Of a stretch of DNA of 64,000 bases, positions 35,420-42,793 are shown in pieces; the stretch's first letter is position 1; each line of letters begins with the position of its first letter. Below the pieces are notes generated by a model, which saw nothing but the letters and a program-made list of their open reading frames with translations, did not search any database and had not been told where the DNA came from. The stretch comes from Escherichia coli (GTDB taxonomy: Bacteria; Pseudomonadota; Gammaproteobacteria; Enterobacterales; Enterobacteriaceae), in NCBI RefSeq assembly GCF_003334765.1, contig NZ_QOWT01000001.1; one strand, 5' to 3'. The translations under genes and the position numbers were made by a program.

Positions 35420-36727
35420 TTATTTGCTACTGTCCGGGCCGCGTTCACCGGTTGCTACCGGATTTTTTGGATCGCTGCTCCATTCGTACCAGCCGCCGTC
35501 ATACACGGAAACATTCTTCCAACCCATGGCGCGTGCGTACATAAAGGTTTCGGACGCGCGCCAGCCGGTGCCGCAGTAGAATGAAACTTGCTGCTCTGGT
35601 TTGATATTCCACGCTTTCCACATAGCGGTAATATCATCGGCGCTGCGCATGGTGCCATCCGGGTTATGAAAATCTTCCATATGCGTCGAGTCGCTACCAG
35701 CGTGTCCCCAACGTGCGCCGGCTATTTCACCTTTTGGTTTAATATAGCTGTAACCGCTGGTCGTACCGATAAATTCTGGCCACGAACGAATGCTCACCAG
35801 CGATGCATCCTGGCGATGCAGCAGTCCACGGGCCTGTTCCATATCGAGCATCAACTGCGGTTGTGCCGGGATCTTCACGCCGAAATCCGGTTCCGCTTTC
35901 ACTTTCGGTGGCGTTCCGCGCTCAACAGGCAGTCCCGCGTCGGACCAGGTTTGCCAGCCGCCATCCAGCAGGCGCACATCTTTCACGCCAGCATAAAGCA
36001 TAATCTGCGCCACACGCGCTGCAGCGTATACGTCACGCCCATACAGAATGACCGTGGTGTCATGGCGAATGCCGTGTTTTGCCAGCATCGCTTTTAGTTG
36101 TTCATCAGAAACTTTGTTCCACAGCGGTTCACTTTCCACTTCGTTGGTATCGATGTAGTCAGCGCCGGGAATATGGCTGATAAGGTAAAGCTTAGGAGCG
36201 CCCCAGGCCGCTTCAATGACTTTCCAGTCACCGGCAGGTTTCGCCGTAACCTCTTTACCTTGTTGCAGGTCGTGCAGCCATTGCGGATAAACCAGCTGCT
36301 CAAAATGCGGCAGTTTTTGCAGACGGGAAGGTTCGCTTAGCGCGTCACTCAGGATGGAGATATGCGTTAAACCTGCTTTTTGCAGTCGCGTTTTGACGGC
36401 GTCGACATCTTTGTCATTACCGTACAGCGCCACCGGAGCATCGGTTTTCAGGTTATGTTGCTTGATCCACGCGTTGAGCTGTTCGGTGCTCATTTTGTCA
36501 AGCCAGCTGGCAGAGAGGTTTAAGGCGGCAGGTTCATGACCAGAAGGGCCATTTAAGGTTTGTGGCCAGCCGTTATAAAACGCGCTGGGGCGAGTATCTA
36601 TCGCTTTGCCATTTTGTTGTTGAAGCTGGTCAAGTGTAAGAGGCTTCGCCAGTTCAGCGGCCCACGAAGAAGCGCAAGCCAGCCCTAAAGCCATTGCCAG
36701 CGCGGTCATTTGAGAAACACGTTTCAT
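35420..36727 (-). CDS. ynjE: periplasmic multi-rhodanese-domain thiosulfate sulfurtransferase
   Basis: ORF track 35420..36742; start trimmed to ATG 36727 (MKRVSQMTALAMALGLACASSWA signal peptide, 435 aa). Confidence 0.88.
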   Translation of the reverse strand: MKRVSQMTALAMALGLACASSWAAELAKPLTLDQLQQQNGKAIDTRPSAFYNGWPQTLNGPSGHEPAALNLSASWLDKMSTEQLNAWIKQHNLKTDAPVALYGNDKDVDAVKTRLQKAGLTHISILSDALSEPSRLQKLPHFEQLVYPQWLHDLQQGKEVTAKPAGDWKVIEAAWGAPKLYLISHIPGADYIDTNEVESEPLWNKVSDEQLKAMLAKHGIRHDTTVILYGRDVYAAARVAQIMLYAGVKDVRLLDGGWQTWSDAGLPVERGTPPKVKAEPDFGVKIPAQPQLMLDMEQARGLLHRQDASLVSIRSWPEFIGTTSGYSYIKPKGEIAGARWGHAGSDSTHMEDFHNPDGTMRSADDITAMWKAWNIKPEQQVSFYCGTGWRASETFMYARAMGWKNVSVYDGGWYEWSSDPKNPVATGERGPDSSK

Positions 36728-36793
36728 CGAAAATCCCGACATTGTAGTTTTGAGTGCGCCATTCTGAACTGACGCATTGAGAAAAACTTTGCG

Positions 36794-37447
36794 TTATCGC
36801 AGTTTGTTGTAATTTTCTGACCACTGCGCCATATCCAGAACAGAACTATCAGCAGGAACATCCTGGAGATCGTGCGTTACCTGAACGACGGGGATCGCCA
36901 GGGCGCGAACTTCGCTGAACACCCACTGGCGAAAATTATCGCGCAGAGCCACATCAAGACGGCTGAATGGCTCATCCAGGAGTAACGCTTTTGGTTGGGC
37001 GAGAAGGGCGCGTAGTAGAGCAACGCGCGCTCGCTGACCGCCAGACAAAGTGGCAGGATCCTGATGGAAAGCTCCCTCAAGGCCTGAACGCTCAAGTGCA
37101 TCATTCACGGCATTACGTCGGGCATTCCCTTTAAGTGTCGCCGGTAGCGCCAGCAGTAAATTTTGCCCGACACTGAACTGGTCAAATAACAGTGCATCCT
37201 GAAAAAGAATGCCAATCTGACGCTGTGCGGTGGGTAGGATGTCAATCCGTTGCTCATTGAGCCATAGCTCACCTGTACAAGAAAACTGTTCGGCCAGTGC
37301 ACCAATCATCCATGAAAACAGAGTGGATTTTCCACAGCCAGACGGCCCCATTAACGTGACAATGTCACCTTTATCCACCGTAAAGTTAACGTTTGTCAGC
37401 AAGCGGCTTTCTGGTAAACGTAGCGAAACATTTTTCACGCAGAGCAT
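36794..37447 (-). CDS. ynjD: ABC transporter ATP-binding protein
   Basis: ORF track 36794..37534; start trimmed to ATG 37447 (MLCVKNVSLRL, 217 aa); Walker A GPSGCGKST, signature LSGGQRARV, Walker B LLLDEP. Confidence 0.88.
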   Translation of the reverse strand: MLCVKNVSLRLPESRLLTNVNFTVDKGDIVTLMGPSGCGKSTLFSWMIGALAEQFSCTGELWLNEQRIDILPTAQRQIGILFQDALLFDQFSVGQNLLLALPATLKGNARRNAVNDALERSGLEGAFHQDPATLSGGQRARVALLRALLAQPKALLLDEPFSRLDVALRDNFRQWVFSEVRALAIPVVQVTHDLQDVPADSSVLDMAQWSENYNKLR

Positions 37448-41400: not shown

Positions 41401-42078
41401 TTATTCGGCGATTTTAAAGGTAACCGTTGCCAGCGTGTTATCCGCCGGGAGAACTGAGGCATTGCCTTTGAATTTAACTTCACCACGTTTTTCAACCGCA
41501 CCATAAGTGTATGTTGCATTGCTGACGATGCCGACCGGGCAGCTATCCAGACACACCAGGCAACCCGTTTTCTTCTCTTCTGCTGCCGTTAAATTACCGC
41601 CAAAGCGCATGTCCAGTTTCTTGCCATTACTGTCAACAATCACTTCATCGAAGGAATACGCTTTTGCCGCCCCTTGCCAGTTGACCGAAATATCCAGTTT
41701 GCTGCCTGTGACATGAGTCGTTTCTTTATTATCCATCGTCATGTTTTCGCCCGGCGTACCACCTGCCTCTTTCAGGGCTTCATAAAATGCTTTCGGGGTC
41801 GCATAACCCATAAACAGCGATTTATGTCCGTTGGAGCCATCTTTAAACACAATACCGTGACGAGTGTCGTCGGTGAGGAAACGACCATTAATTTGCACCA
41901 GCATGGTTACCGTATGGTTATTGGCATCGACACGCAGCGGTTGGCTGTTCGAAAGTCCGTCGTATTCCACTTTTGCCGCCGCATTCTCTTGTTGATCGCA
42001 GCCGCTAAGCCCAGCAACAGCCAGTAAACAGAGTGCAGCCAGTCCTTTTTTCCATGACACTGAATAATGTTGCAACAT
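41401..42078 (-). CDS. ydjY: putative lipoprotein
   Basis: ORF track 41401..42240; start trimmed to ATG 42078 (MLQHYSVSWKKGLAALCLLAVAGLSGC lipobox, 225 aa). Confidence 0.82.
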   Translation of the reverse strand: MLQHYSVSWKKGLAALCLLAVAGLSGCDQQENAAAKVEYDGLSNSQPLRVDANNHTVTMLVQINGRFLTDDTRHGIVFKDGSNGHKSLFMGYATPKAFYEALKEAGGTPGENMTMDNKETTHVTGSKLDISVNWQGAAKAYSFDEVIVDSNGKKLDMRFGGNLTAAEEKKTGCLVCLDSCPVGIVSNATYTYGAVEKRGEVKFKGNASVLPADNTLATVTFKIAE

Positions 42079-42082
42079 CGTT

Positions 42083-42793
42083 CTATCCTTCATTTTTTGG
42101 GTGAGTAAGTGGGCTGCGGCGCGAAGCAGACAGATCCACATGTTTGTGTCGGGCGTAGAGTTTTGCGAGCTGGACGAGAATAAACAGCGCCAGGCCCGCC
42201 AGACAGAGTTGTAAAATAAAGCGCAGCGTAATGCCTTCATTGGCGAGATCGCTTGCCATCACGGTATAAATAACAATACCGGGTAGGGTCGTGAGTGCCG
42301 AAATAAGGGTATAAGGCCAGAAGGCGATTGTGGTTAATCCGTAAGCGTAATTTTGAATATTGTAAGGAAACAACGGGATTAAGCGGGTCAGAATAAGAAA
42401 ATCAATACCGTTACGCGCAATGCCTTTTTCAATGGCCTGGAAGGTATTGCTATGGCCAACGTATTTCAGCAGTAAATCACGTCCCAGCCAGCGCGCCAGC
42501 AGGAATGAGCACGAGGAGGCCAGCATGGCGGCAATTAATGAGAGTAGTGTCCCTAAGAGCGGGCCAAAAACTATTCCTCCCGCGATCACCAGTATGCTTC
42601 CTGGTAACAGCAAGAGGGTGGCAATGATGAATAACAGAATATAGAGGCTATAGCCGAAAAATCCGCTCTGGCGGATGAGTGTCTGTAAGTGGGGTAAATC
42701 GGTGAGCAGATCGAATAAACCGAAAGCGTGGATAGCGTAAATGACCAGCGCAAAAATAAGACAGGCAAAAAGAAATTTACGCTCAGCGTTCAT
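42083..42793 (-). CDS. ydjX: TVP38/TMEM64 (DedA-like) inner membrane protein
   Basis: ORF track 42083..42841; start trimmed to ATG 42793 (MNAERKF, 236 aa). Confidence 0.82.
   Translation of the reverse strand: MNAERKFLFACLIFALVIYAIHAFGLFDLLTDLPHLQTLIRQSGFFGYSLYILLFIIATLLLLPGSILVIAGGIVFGPLLGTLLSLIAAMLASSCSFLLARWLGRDLLLKYVGHSNTFQAIEKGIARNGIDFLILTRLIPLFPYNIQNYAYGLTTIAFWPYTLISALTTLPGIVIYTVMASDLANEGITLRFILQLCLAGLALFILVQLAKLYARHKHVDLSASRRSPLTHPKNEG

What the first reader, a model, noticed from the sequence alone, without database searches (positions are those of the whole stretch)
35420..42793. ydjXYZ-ynjABCD: seven translationally coupled genes joining DedA/TVP38-type membrane proteins, a lipoprotein, an AhpD-like protein and an ABC importer, next to the rhodanese ynjE
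All seven genes are on the minus strand. With the starts chosen here, stop/start junctions are a 4-nt gap (ydjX/ydjY), 14-nt gap (ydjY/ydjZ), 1-nt overlap (ydjZ/ynjA), 9-nt gap (ynjA/ynjB), 28-nt overlap (ynjB/ynjC) and 1-nt overlap (ynjC/ynjD), which strongly suggests a single coupled operon. ynjE, a periplasmic multi-rhodanese sulfurtransferase with a clear signal peptide, follows after a 66-nt gap. This composition suggests uptake and handling of a sulfur-containing or redox-sensitive substrate, but I know of no defined substrate for the transporter or function for the paired TVP38-family proteins.
Basis: partly seen in the sequence, partly recalled or inferred. Interest (0 to 1): 0.55.

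Follow-up and report, generated by a model that had tools for sequence, protein, structure and literature searches.

The report
Known anaerobic E. coli operon, selenium/sulfur-linked
This is the already annotated, oxygen-regulated E. coli operon ydjXYZ-ynjABCD with its neighbours ynjE and ynjF; its function is still unknown, but related gene clusters in distant bacteria suggest it moves selenium or sulfur across the cell membrane.

Summary
The window is E. coli chromosome. The locus is in 5425 of 5426 complete genomes.

It is not new. ydjXYZ-ynjABCD is a published FNR-activated operon, ynjE has its own FNR-dependent promoter, and both share a published expression module with yedEF.

Comparative analysis adds the following:
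- YdjY is a rare lipoprotein family with three invariant cysteines. It almost always sits beside a YdjZ-type VTT/TVP38 protein that carries two conserved cysteines.
- In some proteins the YdjY domain is fused to a rhodanese domain.
- Recurring partners are a rhodanese, a cytoplasmic thiol or Fe-S reductase, a YnjB-type ABC importer, and either a YnjF-type CDP-alcohol phosphatidyltransferase or the TIGR04282/TIGR04283/ArsS cassette.
- Selenium markers (SelD, YedF, PF11823) recur nearby in some lineages.
- Across Enterobacterales the constant core is YdjZ-type VTT, YnjA, YnjF and YnjE. ynjF therefore belongs to the system, and ydjY is optional.

My best reading is a selenium/sulfur relay across the inner membrane under anaerobiosis. 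This is inferred, not shown. The ligand of YnjB and the lipid made by YnjF are unresolved.

The parts
42903..42916 (-). FNR-type box TTGAGAAAAATCAA in the xthA-ydjX spacer. It is centred about 60.5 nt upstream of a likely transcription start near 42849, which has a TTATAC -10-like hexamer at 42863-42858.
   Evidence: Pattern search, 1 mismatch. Sequence read. Agrees with the published FNR site at -60.5 for ydjXYZ-ynjABCD (PMC3688515).
42083..42793 (-). ydjX: VTT/TVP38 (TMEM41-type DedA superfamily) membrane protein, 236 aa. It belongs to the less conserved of the two VTT types and has no invariant cysteine.
   Evidence: RefSeq annotation. Weak UptA/DedA NCBIfam hits. 27% identical to YdjZ. Orthologues carry PF09335. 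Placed in the TMEM41 family by Okawa et al..
41401..42078 (-). ydjY: lipoprotein, 225 aa, with lipobox LSGC followed by Asp at +2, the rule for inner-membrane retention. The YdjY domain (NF040466/PF27149) has invariant C173-x2-C176-x3-C180, R73-H74 and N112.
40679..41386 (-). ydjZ: VTT/TVP38 membrane protein, 235 aa. This is the highly conserved partner of YdjY. C113 is invariant and C152 is 94% conserved; C152 lies next to R153 just before the LLPF segment that I take, by analogy with published DedA-domain models, to be the second re-entrant loop.
   Evidence: Scores of 220-280 bits to VTT genes adjacent to YdjY across phyla. Conservation over 54 sequences.
40131..40679 (-). ynjA: AhpD-like/CMD-family protein, 182 aa, cytoplasmic. 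C76-x2-C79 and C175 are invariant. It fills the 'reductase slot' of the system.
   Evidence: PF02627 E=5e-8. 101 bits to the YciW-related (seleno)protein model, below its cut-off. Alignment. Coupled to ynjF in other Enterobacterales.
38955..40121 (-). ynjB: periplasmic substrate-binding protein, 388 aa, with a signal peptide ending ...THA/SD. It belongs to subfamily PRK11622 (COG4134). Ligand unknown.
   Evidence: NF008633, 560 bits. SBP_bac_8. No PDB relative by single-sequence search, only remote ones by profile, best E=1e-7. Model pLDDT 87.6, nearest folds 4r6y, PotD, FbpA, AfuA and ThiB.
37447..38982 (-). ynjC: fused two-domain ABC permease, 511 aa.
   Evidence: RefSeq. Weak hits to PhnU2, ModB and CysT permease models in both halves. 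Orthologue carries PF00528.
36794..37447 (-). ynjD: ABC ATPase, 217 aa, with Walker A GPSGCGKST, signature LSGGQ and Walker B LLLDEP.
   Evidence: Translation. Best NCBIfam hits are PhnT2, sulfate and ThiQ ATPases, all below their cut-offs.
36741..36768 (-). Sigma-70-like promoter (TTCAGA, 16 nt, TACAAT) in the 66-nt ynjD-ynjE spacer. Candidate for the separate ynjE promoter.
   Evidence: Consensus scan. The literature reports a separate FNR-activated ynjE promoter. I found no FNR consensus with 3 or fewer mismatches here.
35420..36727 (-). ynjE: periplasmic three-domain rhodanese, 435 aa, with a signal peptide ending ...SWA/AE and active-site loop CGTGWR in the last domain.
   Evidence: RefSeq. 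Rhodanese-family hits. Described as periplasmic, poorly active with thiosulfate or 3-mercaptopyruvate, physiological substrate unclear (PMC10215317).
34791..35411 (+). ynjF: CDP-alcohol phosphatidyltransferase family membrane protein, 206 aa, with motif DGLDGALAR-x7-G-x3-D-x3-D. It is convergent with ynjE, 8 nt between the stop codons.
   Evidence: RefSeq. NCBIfam hits to AIP and PIP synthases, below cut-offs. ynjA-ynjF overlap by 8 nt in Edwardsiella, the Salmonella sp. contig and the Enterobacteriaceae contig L092. YnjF-like genes lie inside YdjY/VTT/YnjB operons of Bacillota.

Best explanation
The locus is E. coli's version of a conserved envelope module. It is switched on by FNR without oxygen. 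I propose that it relays a reduced chalcogen, selenium favoured over sulfur, between the periplasmic face of the inner membrane and the cytoplasm.

Proposed path (all steps inferred):
1. Periplasmic YnjE (rhodanese) and the inner-membrane-anchored lipoprotein YdjY (three invariant cysteines) take up Se or S as a cysteine-bound perselenide, persulfide or selenotrisulfide.
2. The VTT pair provides the membrane passage. YdjZ has two conserved cysteines near its presumed second re-entrant loop, and YdjX is its less conserved partner.
3. Cytoplasmic YnjA (CxxC plus a third cysteine) releases or reduces the cargo. In other bacteria this slot is filled by an HdrD-like Fe-S/CCG protein or a Sec-containing PrdB-like protein. 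The cargo then passes to carriers such as YedF and on to SelD or other users.
4. YnjBCD imports a small organic solute not yet identified. YnjF makes a phospholipid-type conjugate. The role of these two is the least clear step. They may supply a lipid-linked carrier or head group that the VTT proteins move.

Shown: the gene layout, the protein families, the conserved cysteines, the gene neighbourhoods and fusions, and (from papers) FNR control and co-expression with yedEF.

Inferred: the cargo, the direction of movement and every chemical step.
For: Regulation:
- FNR-activated operon, with a separate FNR-activated ynjE promoter.
- An uncharacterised anaerobic iModulon consists of this operon, ynjE, yedEF and yjiLM. 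Its authors propose a role in Mo/Se usage.

Conserved pair:
- YdjY is a small family: 391 representative clusters among 1.84 billion proteins, and 95 confirmed relatives among the pattern matches in a scan of 100,044 species genomes.
- 78 of 80 loci have a VTT gene within 7 kb.
- YdjZ-type partners score 220-280 bits across phyla.

Cysteines:
- YdjY keeps C-x2-C-x3-C everywhere.
- YdjZ has C113 in 100% and C152 in 94% of sequences, while the YdjX type has no conserved cysteine.
- YnjA has invariant C76, C79 and C175.

Fusions:
- Rhodanese(PF00581)::YdjY lipoproteins P0392, P0395 and P0471.
- A VTT::YdjY fusion, P0431.

Recurrent partners in 74 non-enteric loci:
- reductase (HdrD-like) in 24
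- rhodanese in 14
- YnjB-type binding protein in 10
- YnjF-type transferase in 5
- TIGR04282/TIGR04283 in 17
- ArsS in 10

Selenium markers:
- SelD within 10 kb in 7 loci. In L026 it directly follows the HdrD-VTT fusion, YdjY and the small membrane-protein gene.
- YedF-like in 10 loci and PF11823-like in 5.

Best analogue: MAG locus L093 carries every E. coli part (YdjZ orthologue at 56% identity, rhodanese::YdjY, YdjX-like, reductase, YnjF-like, YnjB at 430 bits to PRK11622, permeases, ATPase) plus YedF (TIGR03527, 189 bits) and PF11823 Se_S_carrier.

In E. coli itself, selD lies in the window at 28180-29229, 5.6 kb from ynjF, and this synteny holds across enterics.

Other support:
- A DedA protein has been linked to selenite uptake in Ralstonia metallidurans (review PMC11422209).
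- YnjE's physiological substrate is unknown.
Against: - There is no experimental link between any gene here and selenium.
- SelD or YedF proximity is seen in only about 11 of 74 loci and mainly in two groups (Desulfobacterota, Facklamia).
- In Facklamia and in Bacillus benzoevorans (L061) the cluster itself encodes a real selenoprotein, PrdB-like with an in-frame TGA. SelD might therefore sit nearby in Facklamia only to serve that protein.
- Many neighbour families named '(seleno)protein' are simply redox proteins common in selenium-rich anaerobes.
- In E. coli selD is separated from the locus by five unrelated genes.
- YnjB's conserved acidic and aromatic residues and its nearest folds do not suggest a selenite- or thiosulfate-type ligand.
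- VTT/DedA proteins are otherwise known as lipid scramblases or polyprenyl-phosphate transporters, not ion or chalcogen carriers.
- YnjF and the alternative TIGR04282/TIGR04283 cassette point to a lipid- or sugar-linked product that the relay model does not explain.
- Klebsiella keeps the locus without YdjY.
- Genetic interactions grouped ynjABCDEFI with the Suf Fe-S machinery, which fits sulfur as well as selenium.
Confidence: 0.4

Rival explanations
1. The same relay, but for sulfur only. Periplasmic sulfane sulfur (thiosulfate, polysulfide) is captured by YnjE and YdjY and delivered to the cytoplasm for molybdenum cofactor, Fe-S cluster or thio-cofactor synthesis during anaerobic growth.
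For: - YnjE is a rhodanese that has been tied to molybdopterin synthesis (as cited).
- Genetic interactions cluster ynjABCDEFI with sufCDS.
- YedF/TusA-like proteins and PF11823 are named Se/S carriers and do not discriminate between the two elements.
- L020 has CysD/CysN-like genes upstream.
Against: - YnjE has poor or no activity with thiosulfate or 3-mercaptopyruvate.
- PspE accounts for the conversion of thiosulfate to sulfane sulfur in E. coli.
- SelD, which is specific for selenium, recurs next to YdjY.
- The papers I read report no control by sulfur limitation; the control they report is FNR and anaerobiosis.
Confidence: 0.2
2. A specialised membrane-lipid pathway. YnjBCD imports a head-group precursor, YnjF attaches it to CDP-diacylglycerol, YdjX and YdjZ flip the new lipid to the outer leaflet, and YdjY, YnjE and YnjA modify or maintain a redox-sensitive head group. 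In other bacteria the TIGR04282/TIGR04283/kinase/ArsS/nucleosidase cassette makes the head group (a 5-substituted ribose, as in arsenosugar lipids) instead of importing it.
For: - VTT/DedA relatives move lipids, and the authors of the UptA study propose that paralogues act on distinct lipids.
- YnjF has the complete CDP-alcohol phosphatidyltransferase motif and is translationally coupled to ynjA in three genera.
- YnjF-type genes and TIGR04282/TIGR04283 never occur together among YdjY loci, as expected of alternatives.
- Campylobacter, Facklamia and Catonella embed YdjY and VTT genes inside the TIGR04282/TIGR04283/ArsS cassette together with an APH-type kinase. Facklamia, one Catonella locus and one Clostridium locus also have a nucleoside hydrolase.
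- An OlsE-like lipid hydroxylase::YdjY fusion exists.
- YnjB's fold neighbours bind phosphonates and sugar phosphates.
Against: - No unusual lipid is known in E. coli.
- The model does not explain the rhodanese::YdjY fusions or the YedF, SelD and PF11823 neighbours.
- Many loci (Gemella, Finegoldia) show only YdjY and a VTT gene within 10 kb.
- This model is compatible with, rather than exclusive of, the chalcogen relay.
Confidence: 0.2
3. Arsenic handling. The three-cysteine YdjY site binds As(III), and the system takes up or processes arsenicals, in line with NCBI's 'arsenosugar biosynthesis' names for the associated ArsS, TIGR04282 and TIGR04283 genes.
For: - ArsS (TIGR04167, 448 bits in Campylobacter) and TIGR04282/TIGR04283 lie in 10-17 YdjY loci.
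- Three thiolates are the classic As(III) ligand set (general knowledge).
- One Finegoldia contig has ArsA, Acr3 and ArsC 7 kb away.
Against: - No ars resistance gene appears in any of the 80 genome loci.
- No ArsM-type methyltransferase was seen in the four loci I mapped gene by gene.
- E. coli has none of the biosynthetic genes at this locus.
- The ArsR-like C-x-C-x2-C pattern in YnjA is not conserved outside enterics.
- Regulation is by FNR, and no arsenic response is reported.
Confidence: 0.05
4. Undecaprenyl-phosphate or general envelope housekeeping. YdjX and YdjZ are redundant DedA-type flippases, and the other genes are merely co-transcribed without a shared function.
For: - Weak NCBIfam similarity to UptA, 26-36 bits.
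- BaeR overproduction mildly induces ynjABCD.
Against: - Of the eight E. coli paralogues expressed in B. subtilis, only DedA gave high-level MX2401 resistance, the readout for undecaprenyl-phosphate transport.
- Neighbourhood conservation across phyla and the domain fusions argue for one shared function.
Confidence: 0.05

Closest known systems
VTT/DedA superfamily, TMEM41 branch (TMEM41B, TMEM64, Tvp38; bacterial UptA as the characterised DedA)
   Same: YdjX and YdjZ carry the VTT domain PF09335, which published predictions model with two re-entrant loops. Published phylogeny places them with eukaryotic TMEM41 proteins rather than with the other six E. coli DedA paralogues.
   Different: Here the VTT protein is tied to a Cys-rich lipoprotein, a rhodanese and a thiol reductase. 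YdjZ-type members have two conserved cysteines. In Desulfobacterota the VTT domain is fused to a cytoplasmic Fer4/CCG (HdrD-like) domain. YdjX and YdjZ did not give high-level undecaprenyl-phosphate transport activity.
YedE/YedF and YeeE/YeeD (membrane Sulf_transp protein plus a TusA-like carrier; thiosulfate uptake and selenium-associated genes)
   Same: It works like these in concept: a membrane protein with conserved cysteines paired with cysteine-based carriers. yedEF is co-expressed with this locus in E. coli. YedF genes lie next to YdjY and VTT genes in several bacteria.
   Different: The membrane fold is unrelated (VTT, not Sulf_transp). There are extracytoplasmic partners (YdjY, rhodanese), plus an ABC importer and a lipid synthase. 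No transport has been shown.
TIGR04282/TIGR04283/TIGR04167 (ArsS) cassette, annotated by NCBI as arsenosugar biosynthesis
   Same: In Campylobacter concisus, Facklamia, Catonella, Thermincola and several Desulfobacterota, YdjY and VTT genes lie inside or beside this cassette.
   Different: E. coli has none of these enzymes at the locus. It has YnjF instead, and the two never co-occur among YdjY loci. Whether the cassette handles arsenic in these anaerobes is untested.
ABC importers with a fused permease and a cluster-D binding protein (PhnS2T2U2 for 2-aminoethylphosphonate, ThiBPQ for thiamine, FbpABC for iron, PotABCD for polyamines)
   Same: YnjD scores best against PhnT2, sulfate-type and ThiQ ATPases. 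YnjC is a fused permease like PhnU2. The YnjB model is closest to 4r6y (STM0429), PotD, FbpA, AfuA and ThiB.
   Different: All scores are far below the curated family cut-offs. YnjB is its own subfamily (PRK11622/COG4134) with no solved structure and no known ligand.
DsbD/CcdA-type transmembrane thiol relays
   Same: The logic is the same: cytoplasmic reductant, membrane protein with cysteines, extracytoplasmic cysteine protein. Facklamia loci actually include CcdA-like and ResA-like genes beside the VTT genes.
   Different: There is no sequence or fold relationship between VTT and DsbD. Electron or chalcogen transfer through YdjZ is purely hypothetical.

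Membership tests
Single transcription unit (operon) ydjXYZ-ynjABCD | Same strand, short or overlapping junctions, no internal terminator or promoter, one upstream promoter | tested here: met
   Junctions run from -28 to +14 nt. The scan found no sigma-70-like site within the seven-gene unit; terminator-like matches within coding sequence were not evaluated. 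An FNR box lies upstream of ydjX.
Single transcription unit (operon) ydjXYZ-ynjABCD | Experimental co-transcription | not testable with these tools
   Listed as one FNR-activated operon with ChIP and RNA-seq support in PMC3688515. Co-varies as one block in the iModulon of PMC7888660. BaeR overproduction changed only ynjA and ynjB, which might hint at an internal start.
VTT/DedA superfamily (PF09335) | VTT domain | tested here: met
   Orthologues of both proteins carry precomputed PF09335. Weak NCBIfam UptA/DedA hits. Published classification.
VTT/DedA superfamily (PF09335) | Lipid scramblase or polyprenyl-phosphate transport activity | not testable with these tools
   The only related datum is that the E. 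coli paralogues other than DedA gave no high-level MX2401 resistance in B. subtilis.
Bacterial lipoprotein (YdjY) | Signal peptide with lipobox L-[AS]-[GA]-C | tested here: met
   The sequence reads ...LLAVAGLSG-C-DQQ. A lipobox cysteine is present in most relatives. Asp at +2 implies inner-membrane retention by the established Lol-avoidance rule.
4Fe-4S ferredoxin-type domain (UniProt label for YdjY) | CxxCxxCxxxCP cluster-binding motif (four cysteines) in a ferredoxin fold | tested here: not met
AhpD-like / carboxymuconolactone decarboxylase family (YnjA) | CMD domain with a CxxC motif | tested here: met
   PF02627 E=5e-8. Invariant C76-E/A-F-C79 plus C175. All NCBIfam equivalog cut-offs are missed, so the subfamily is unnamed.
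Type I ABC importer (YnjBCD) | Secreted binding protein, permease with the BPD_transp_1 fold, ATPase with Walker A, Walker B and signature motifs | tested here: met
   Family and fold results. ATPase motifs read in the translation.
Type I ABC importer (YnjBCD) | Membership of a subfamily with a known substrate (thiamine, 2-aminoethylphosphonate, sulfate, molybdate, polyamine, iron) | tested here: not met
   Every characterised family scores far below its curated cut-off. For example PhnT2 scores 146 against a cut-off of 458, and ThiQ 130 against 245-298. There is no PDB sequence relative.
Rhodanese sulfurtransferase (YnjE) | Rhodanese domain with an active-site cysteine loop | tested here: met
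   Rhodanese-family hits. The loop CGTGWR is in the C-terminal domain. Activity with thiosulfate is poor according to PMC10215317.
CDP-alcohol phosphatidyltransferase (YnjF) | Motif D-x2-D-G-x2-A-R-x7,8-G-x3-D-x3-D in a multi-pass membrane protein | tested here: met
   The sequence DGLDGALAR-RRELTDA-G-GFL-D-ISL-D is present. Orthologues carry PF01066. Nearest named families are AIP and PIP synthases, below their cut-offs. The alcohol substrate is unknown.
Selenium-utilisation gene set (SelD, YedE, YedF, PF11823/DUF3343) | Genomic linkage or co-expression with SelD or YedF | tested here: inconclusive
   Linkage is seen in about 11 of 74 non-enteric YdjY loci plus L093. Co-expression with yedEF holds in E. 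coli. selD lies 5.6 kb from ynjF. A genome-wide co-occurrence test of YdjY/YdjZ against SelD could not be run.
Anti-phage defence system | Match to a known defence protein family | tested here: not met
   No PADLOC hit for any of seven proteins.

The most novel reading that the evidence does not exclude
YdjY, YdjZ/YdjX, YnjE, YnjA and YnjF form a previously unrecognised route that brings trace selenium into anaerobic E. coli and many anaerobes, feeding SelD. The VTT/TMEM41-type proteins would act not as general lipid scramblases but as the membrane step of a cysteine-based, possibly lipid-linked, chalcogen relay. This would give a first specific substrate class for the bacterial TMEM41-type proteins and a candidate answer to how E. 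coli acquires selenium at low concentrations.
Probability: 0.25. Interest if true: 0.8.

Novelty: already known. Interest (0 to 1): 0.45.

Why it matters
The operon, its FNR control and its co-expression with ynjE and yedEF are already published. As a sequence observation the finding is therefore ordinary.

What remains open is the function of eight or nine conserved E. coli genes, including two of the eight DedA/VTT paralogues. These belong to the same branch as human TMEM41B.

The comparative picture assembled here turns a vague 'sulfur or redox' guess into specific, cheap experiments:
- the fixed YdjY and YdjZ pair with conserved cysteines
- the rhodanese::YdjY fusions
- the interchangeable reductase slot
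- ynjF as part of the system
- the recurring SelD, YedF and PF11823 neighbours
- the link to the TIGR04282/TIGR04283/ArsS cassette

If the selenium reading holds, it would bear on how bacteria acquire trace selenium and on what VTT-domain proteins can transport.

Tried and rejected
- **YdjY as a 4Fe-4S ferredoxin (database label).** Rejected. It has three cysteines, not four. Pfam Fer4 matches are at E of 0.09 or worse. The fold is not ferredoxin-like. It is an exported lipoprotein.
- **ArsR-like As(III) site C-x-C-x2-C in YnjA.** C74 is conserved only in enterics, so I dropped this.
- **Linkage to arsenic resistance genes.** ArsA, Acr3 and ArsC lie near one Finegoldia YdjY gene but are absent from all 80 genome loci.
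- **Sequence search of the PDB.** YdjY gave only chance Fer4-like matches. YnjB gave nothing with a single sequence and only remote cluster-D binding proteins with a profile.
- **Fold search of YnjB.** It places the protein among cluster-D binding proteins but does not identify a ligand.
- **FNR consensus in the ynjD-ynjE spacer.** None with 3 or fewer mismatches, although the literature reports a site at -41.5.
- **The small 'WLEMRV' membrane protein.** It accompanies YdjY elsewhere but has no counterpart in the window.
- **YnjF homologue search.** It returned only enteric proteins among the listed hits and gave no distant contexts.
- **Literature searches.** Searches for ynjF, ydjY, ynjB and for arsenosugar/DedA links found no functional study.
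- **Defence system and structured RNA.** No PADLOC hit and no Rfam hit in the locus.

Full report
**Observation.** The window is E. coli chromosome. The 9.5-kb stretch around the finding matches strain H3 and others at 100% identity. It is present in 5425 of 5426 complete genomes. RefSeq annotation, converted to window coordinates, gives these minus-strand genes: ydjX 42083-42793, ydjY 41401-42078, ydjZ 40679-41386, ynjA 40131-40679, ynjB 38955-40121, ynjC 37447-38982, ynjD 36794-37447 and ynjE 35420-36727. ynjF lies at 34791-35411 on the plus strand and xthA is upstream. I recomputed the junctions as +4, +14, -1, +9, -28, -1 and then +66 nt before ynjE. The 28-nt ynjB/ynjC overlap recurs in gene calls from Klebsiella and two other Enterobacteriaceae. 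Translational coupling is an inference from the layout.

**Protein families.**
- YdjX and YdjZ are VTT/TVP38 proteins and are 27% identical to each other. Published phylogeny places them with eukaryotic TMEM41 proteins.
- YdjY has a lipobox followed by Asp at +2. It matches only the YdjY domain model NF040466/PF27149.
- YnjA is a CMD/AhpD-like protein.
- YnjB is an SBP_bac_8 binding protein of subfamily PRK11622.
- YnjC is a fused permease and YnjD an ABC ATPase.
- YnjE is a periplasmic three-domain rhodanese. Its activity with thiosulfate or 3-mercaptopyruvate is poor and its physiological substrate is called unclear.
- YnjF has the complete CDP-alcohol phosphatidyltransferase motif.

**What is already published.** Myers et al. 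list ydjXYZ-ynjABCD as an operon directly activated by FNR from a site at -60.5. They list ynjE as separately activated from a site at -41.5. I find the box TTGAGAAAAATCAA at 42903-42916, at the right distance from a likely start near 42849. A sigma-70-like promoter lies in the ynjD-ynjE spacer, but no good FNR box does. Sastry et al. describe an uncharacterised anaerobic iModulon made of this operon, ynjE, yedEF and yjiLM. They propose a link to molybdenum and selenium use. A genetic-interaction screen grouped ynjABCDEFI with the Suf machinery. BaeR overproduction mildly induces ynjAB. The finding is therefore a known operon of unknown function.

**The conserved core outside E. coli.** YdjY is a small family:
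- 238 proteins in the word-indexed search.
- 391 representative clusters among 1.84 billion proteins.
- 95 confirmed relatives among the pattern matches in a scan of 100,044 species genomes. The scan was pattern-based, so this is a lower bound.

Members are 45-60% identical across Escherichia, Firmicutes, Campylobacterota and Desulfobacterota. They keep R73-H74, N112 and C173-x2-C176-x3-C180. In 78 of 80 loci a VTT gene lies within 7 kb. The usual partner is a YdjZ-type protein scoring 220-280 bits. That protein has C113 invariant and C152 94% conserved, while the YdjX type has no conserved cysteine. In Desulfobacterota the VTT domain is fused to a cytoplasmic Fer4/CCG (HdrD-like) domain. A small membrane protein with a WLEMRV motif often accompanies YdjY. 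In many Firmicutes it appears fused to the VTT protein. E. coli lacks it.

**Recurrent partners.** Among 74 non-enteric loci, within the flanks available:
- HdrD-like reductase: 24
- rhodanese: 14. YnjE-like multi-domain forms occur in Catonella, Campylobacter and Peptostreptococcaceae.
- YnjB-type binding protein with permeases: 10
- YnjF-type transferase: 5
- TIGR04282/TIGR04283: 17
- ArsS: 10
- APH-type kinase: 12

YnjF-type genes and TIGR04282/TIGR04283 never co-occur. In Facklamia and in Bacillus benzoevorans (L061) the reductase slot holds a PrdB-like gene. It has an in-frame TGA followed by a conserved continuation, so it is a true selenoprotein. Facklamia also adds CcdA-like and ResA-like genes, a nucleoside hydrolase and SelD.

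**Fusions and the best analogue.** The YdjY domain is fused to a rhodanese domain in P0392, P0395 and P0471. It is fused to the end of a YdjZ-like VTT protein in P0431 and to an OlsE-like lipid hydroxylase in P0481. Foldseek against the AlphaFold database had already shown YdjY-like models annotated as rhodanese or sulfurtransferase. The contig carrying P0392 (L093) reads as follows:
- One strand: YdjZ orthologue (56% identity), rhodanese::YdjY, small membrane protein, YdjX-like, YedF (TIGR03527, 189 bits), PF11823 Se_S_carrier.
- Convergent strand: HdrD-like, YnjF-like, YnjB (430 bits to PRK11622), two permeases, ATPase.

This is the complete E. coli parts list plus two Se/S carrier genes.

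**Selenium markers.** SelD lies within 10 kb of YdjY in seven non-enteric loci. Three are Facklamia and four are Desulfobacterota. In L026 SelD directly follows the HdrD-VTT fusion, YdjY and the small membrane-protein gene. In L083 the order is SelD, YedF, YdjY. YedF-like genes occur in ten loci and PF11823-like genes in five. In E. coli selD is in the window at 28180-29229, 5.6 kb from ynjF, and this synteny holds in other enterics. A single-copy gene should fall within 10 kb of another by chance in well under 1% of genomes (my estimate). The recurrence is therefore suggestive. It is confined to a few lineages, and in Facklamia it could be explained by the selenoprotein inside the cluster.

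**Variants within Enterobacterales.**
- Klebsiella has YdjX-YdjZ-YnjA-YnjBCD-YnjE with convergent YnjF and no ydjY.
- The Enterobacteriaceae contig L092 has YdjX-YdjZ-YnjBCD-YnjE convergent with YnjA-YnjF, which overlap by 8 nt.
- The Salmonella sp. contig L091 has one divergent VTT gene, YnjBCD-YnjE and the same YnjA-YnjF pair.
- Edwardsiella has only YnjA-YnjF, YnjE and a YdjZ-like VTT gene.

The constant core is a VTT protein (YdjZ-type in all but L091), YnjA, YnjF and YnjE. ynjF belongs to the system, ydjY is an optional addition, and the seven-gene arrangement is particular to Escherichia and a few relatives.

**Interpretation.** I read three things together as a cysteine-based relay for selenium or sulfur across the inner membrane:
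- cysteine-rich proteins on both faces of the membrane
- a VTT protein with conserved cysteines between them
- rhodanese::YdjY fusions and YedF, PF11823 and SelD neighbours

The relay would be switched on by FNR, when selenoprotein formate dehydrogenases and molybdoenzymes are made. None of this is shown experimentally. The lipid-side genes are not explained by a simple relay. They are YnjF or, alternatively, the nucleotidyl-transferase, glycosyltransferase, kinase and radical-SAM cassette. They point to a lipid- or sugar-linked intermediate. I keep that as a serious rival or complement. [quoted passage not shown] Arsenic handling is suggested only by NCBI's names for the cassette. The absence of ars genes argues against it. 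The locus has no defence-system or RNA-family matches.

**Verdict.** The object is already known as an annotated, FNR-regulated operon of unknown function. I set interest at 0.45: the comparative results make the function directly testable, but the mechanism proposed here is inference.

Noticed in passing
window 28180-31195 (+): selD (selenide, water dikinase; NF002098, 619 bits) followed by topB lies 5.6 kb from ynjF. gdhA, ynjH, nudG and a 387-aa ORF lie in between. The selD...ynjF...ynjE synteny is kept in Enterobacteriaceae contigs L091 and L092.
   Followed up: partly
window 34297-34704 (-), next to ynjF: nudG, annotated as a CTP pyrophosphohydrolase, sits directly beside the CDP-alcohol phosphatidyltransferase gene ynjF (or the ynjA-ynjF pair). 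The same holds in Klebsiella and in contigs L091 and L092. A cytidine-nucleotide connection is possible but untested.
   Followed up: no
window 35411-35420: ynjF and ynjE are convergent with only 8 nt between their stop codons. The pair is listed among candidate 'excludons' (overlapping antisense transcription) in PMC12288877.
   Followed up: partly
L079 3693-4157, L076 4861-5343, L061 13094-13588: A PrdB/GrdB-like gene inside YdjY/VTT clusters has an in-frame TGA followed by a conserved continuation (...LLSPG-U-YICHQSVGLIQ...). It is a probable selenoprotein with a UxxC motif occupying the 'reductase slot'.
   Followed up: partly
L094 14096-15852; L078 2272-3078: An HGD-D-type (double-cubane-like) protein and a BcrAD/BadFG activase lie about 5 kb from a rhodanese::YdjY gene in L094. 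An activase also lies in L078. E. coli yjiL and yjiM, described in the papers read as the same two kinds of protein, share the iModulon with this operon.
   Followed up: no
L062 3311-3685, L079 9505-9900, L059 10771-11154, L093 9097-9483, and others: A small membrane protein of about 125-150 aa with motif S-x-WLEMRV(H/N) accompanies YdjY in at least 8 lineage groups and matches no NCBIfam family. The roughly 390-aa 'long YdjZ' proteins of Gemella, Finegoldia and Peptostreptococcus look like fusions of it to the VTT domain. E. coli has no copy in the window.
   Followed up: partly
protein P0001 (cluster of 4665 member sequences), aligned in A1: The representative of a large cluster of E. coli YdjY sequences has Ser in place of the first conserved cysteine (TGSLVCLDSCP), whereas the window has TGCLVCLDSCP. 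This is either a natural variant or an assembly error.
   Followed up: no
P0481 (478 aa): A fusion of an OlsE-like fatty-acid/ornithine-lipid hydroxylase membrane domain with a C-terminal YdjY domain. It hints that YdjY can work on or next to membrane lipids.
   Followed up: no
window 52787-52829 and 59933-59975 (-): Two Rfam matches to ES036 (CssrF) sRNA, at 42.9 and 55.5 bits against a gathering score of 37.6. They are far from the locus and unrelated to it.
   Followed up: no
window 41401-42240 (-): The ydjY reading frame is open for 279 codons upstream into ydjX. Public gene calls for YdjY vary from 198 to 279 aa. Only the 225-aa form gives a proper signal peptide and lipobox.
   Followed up: partly
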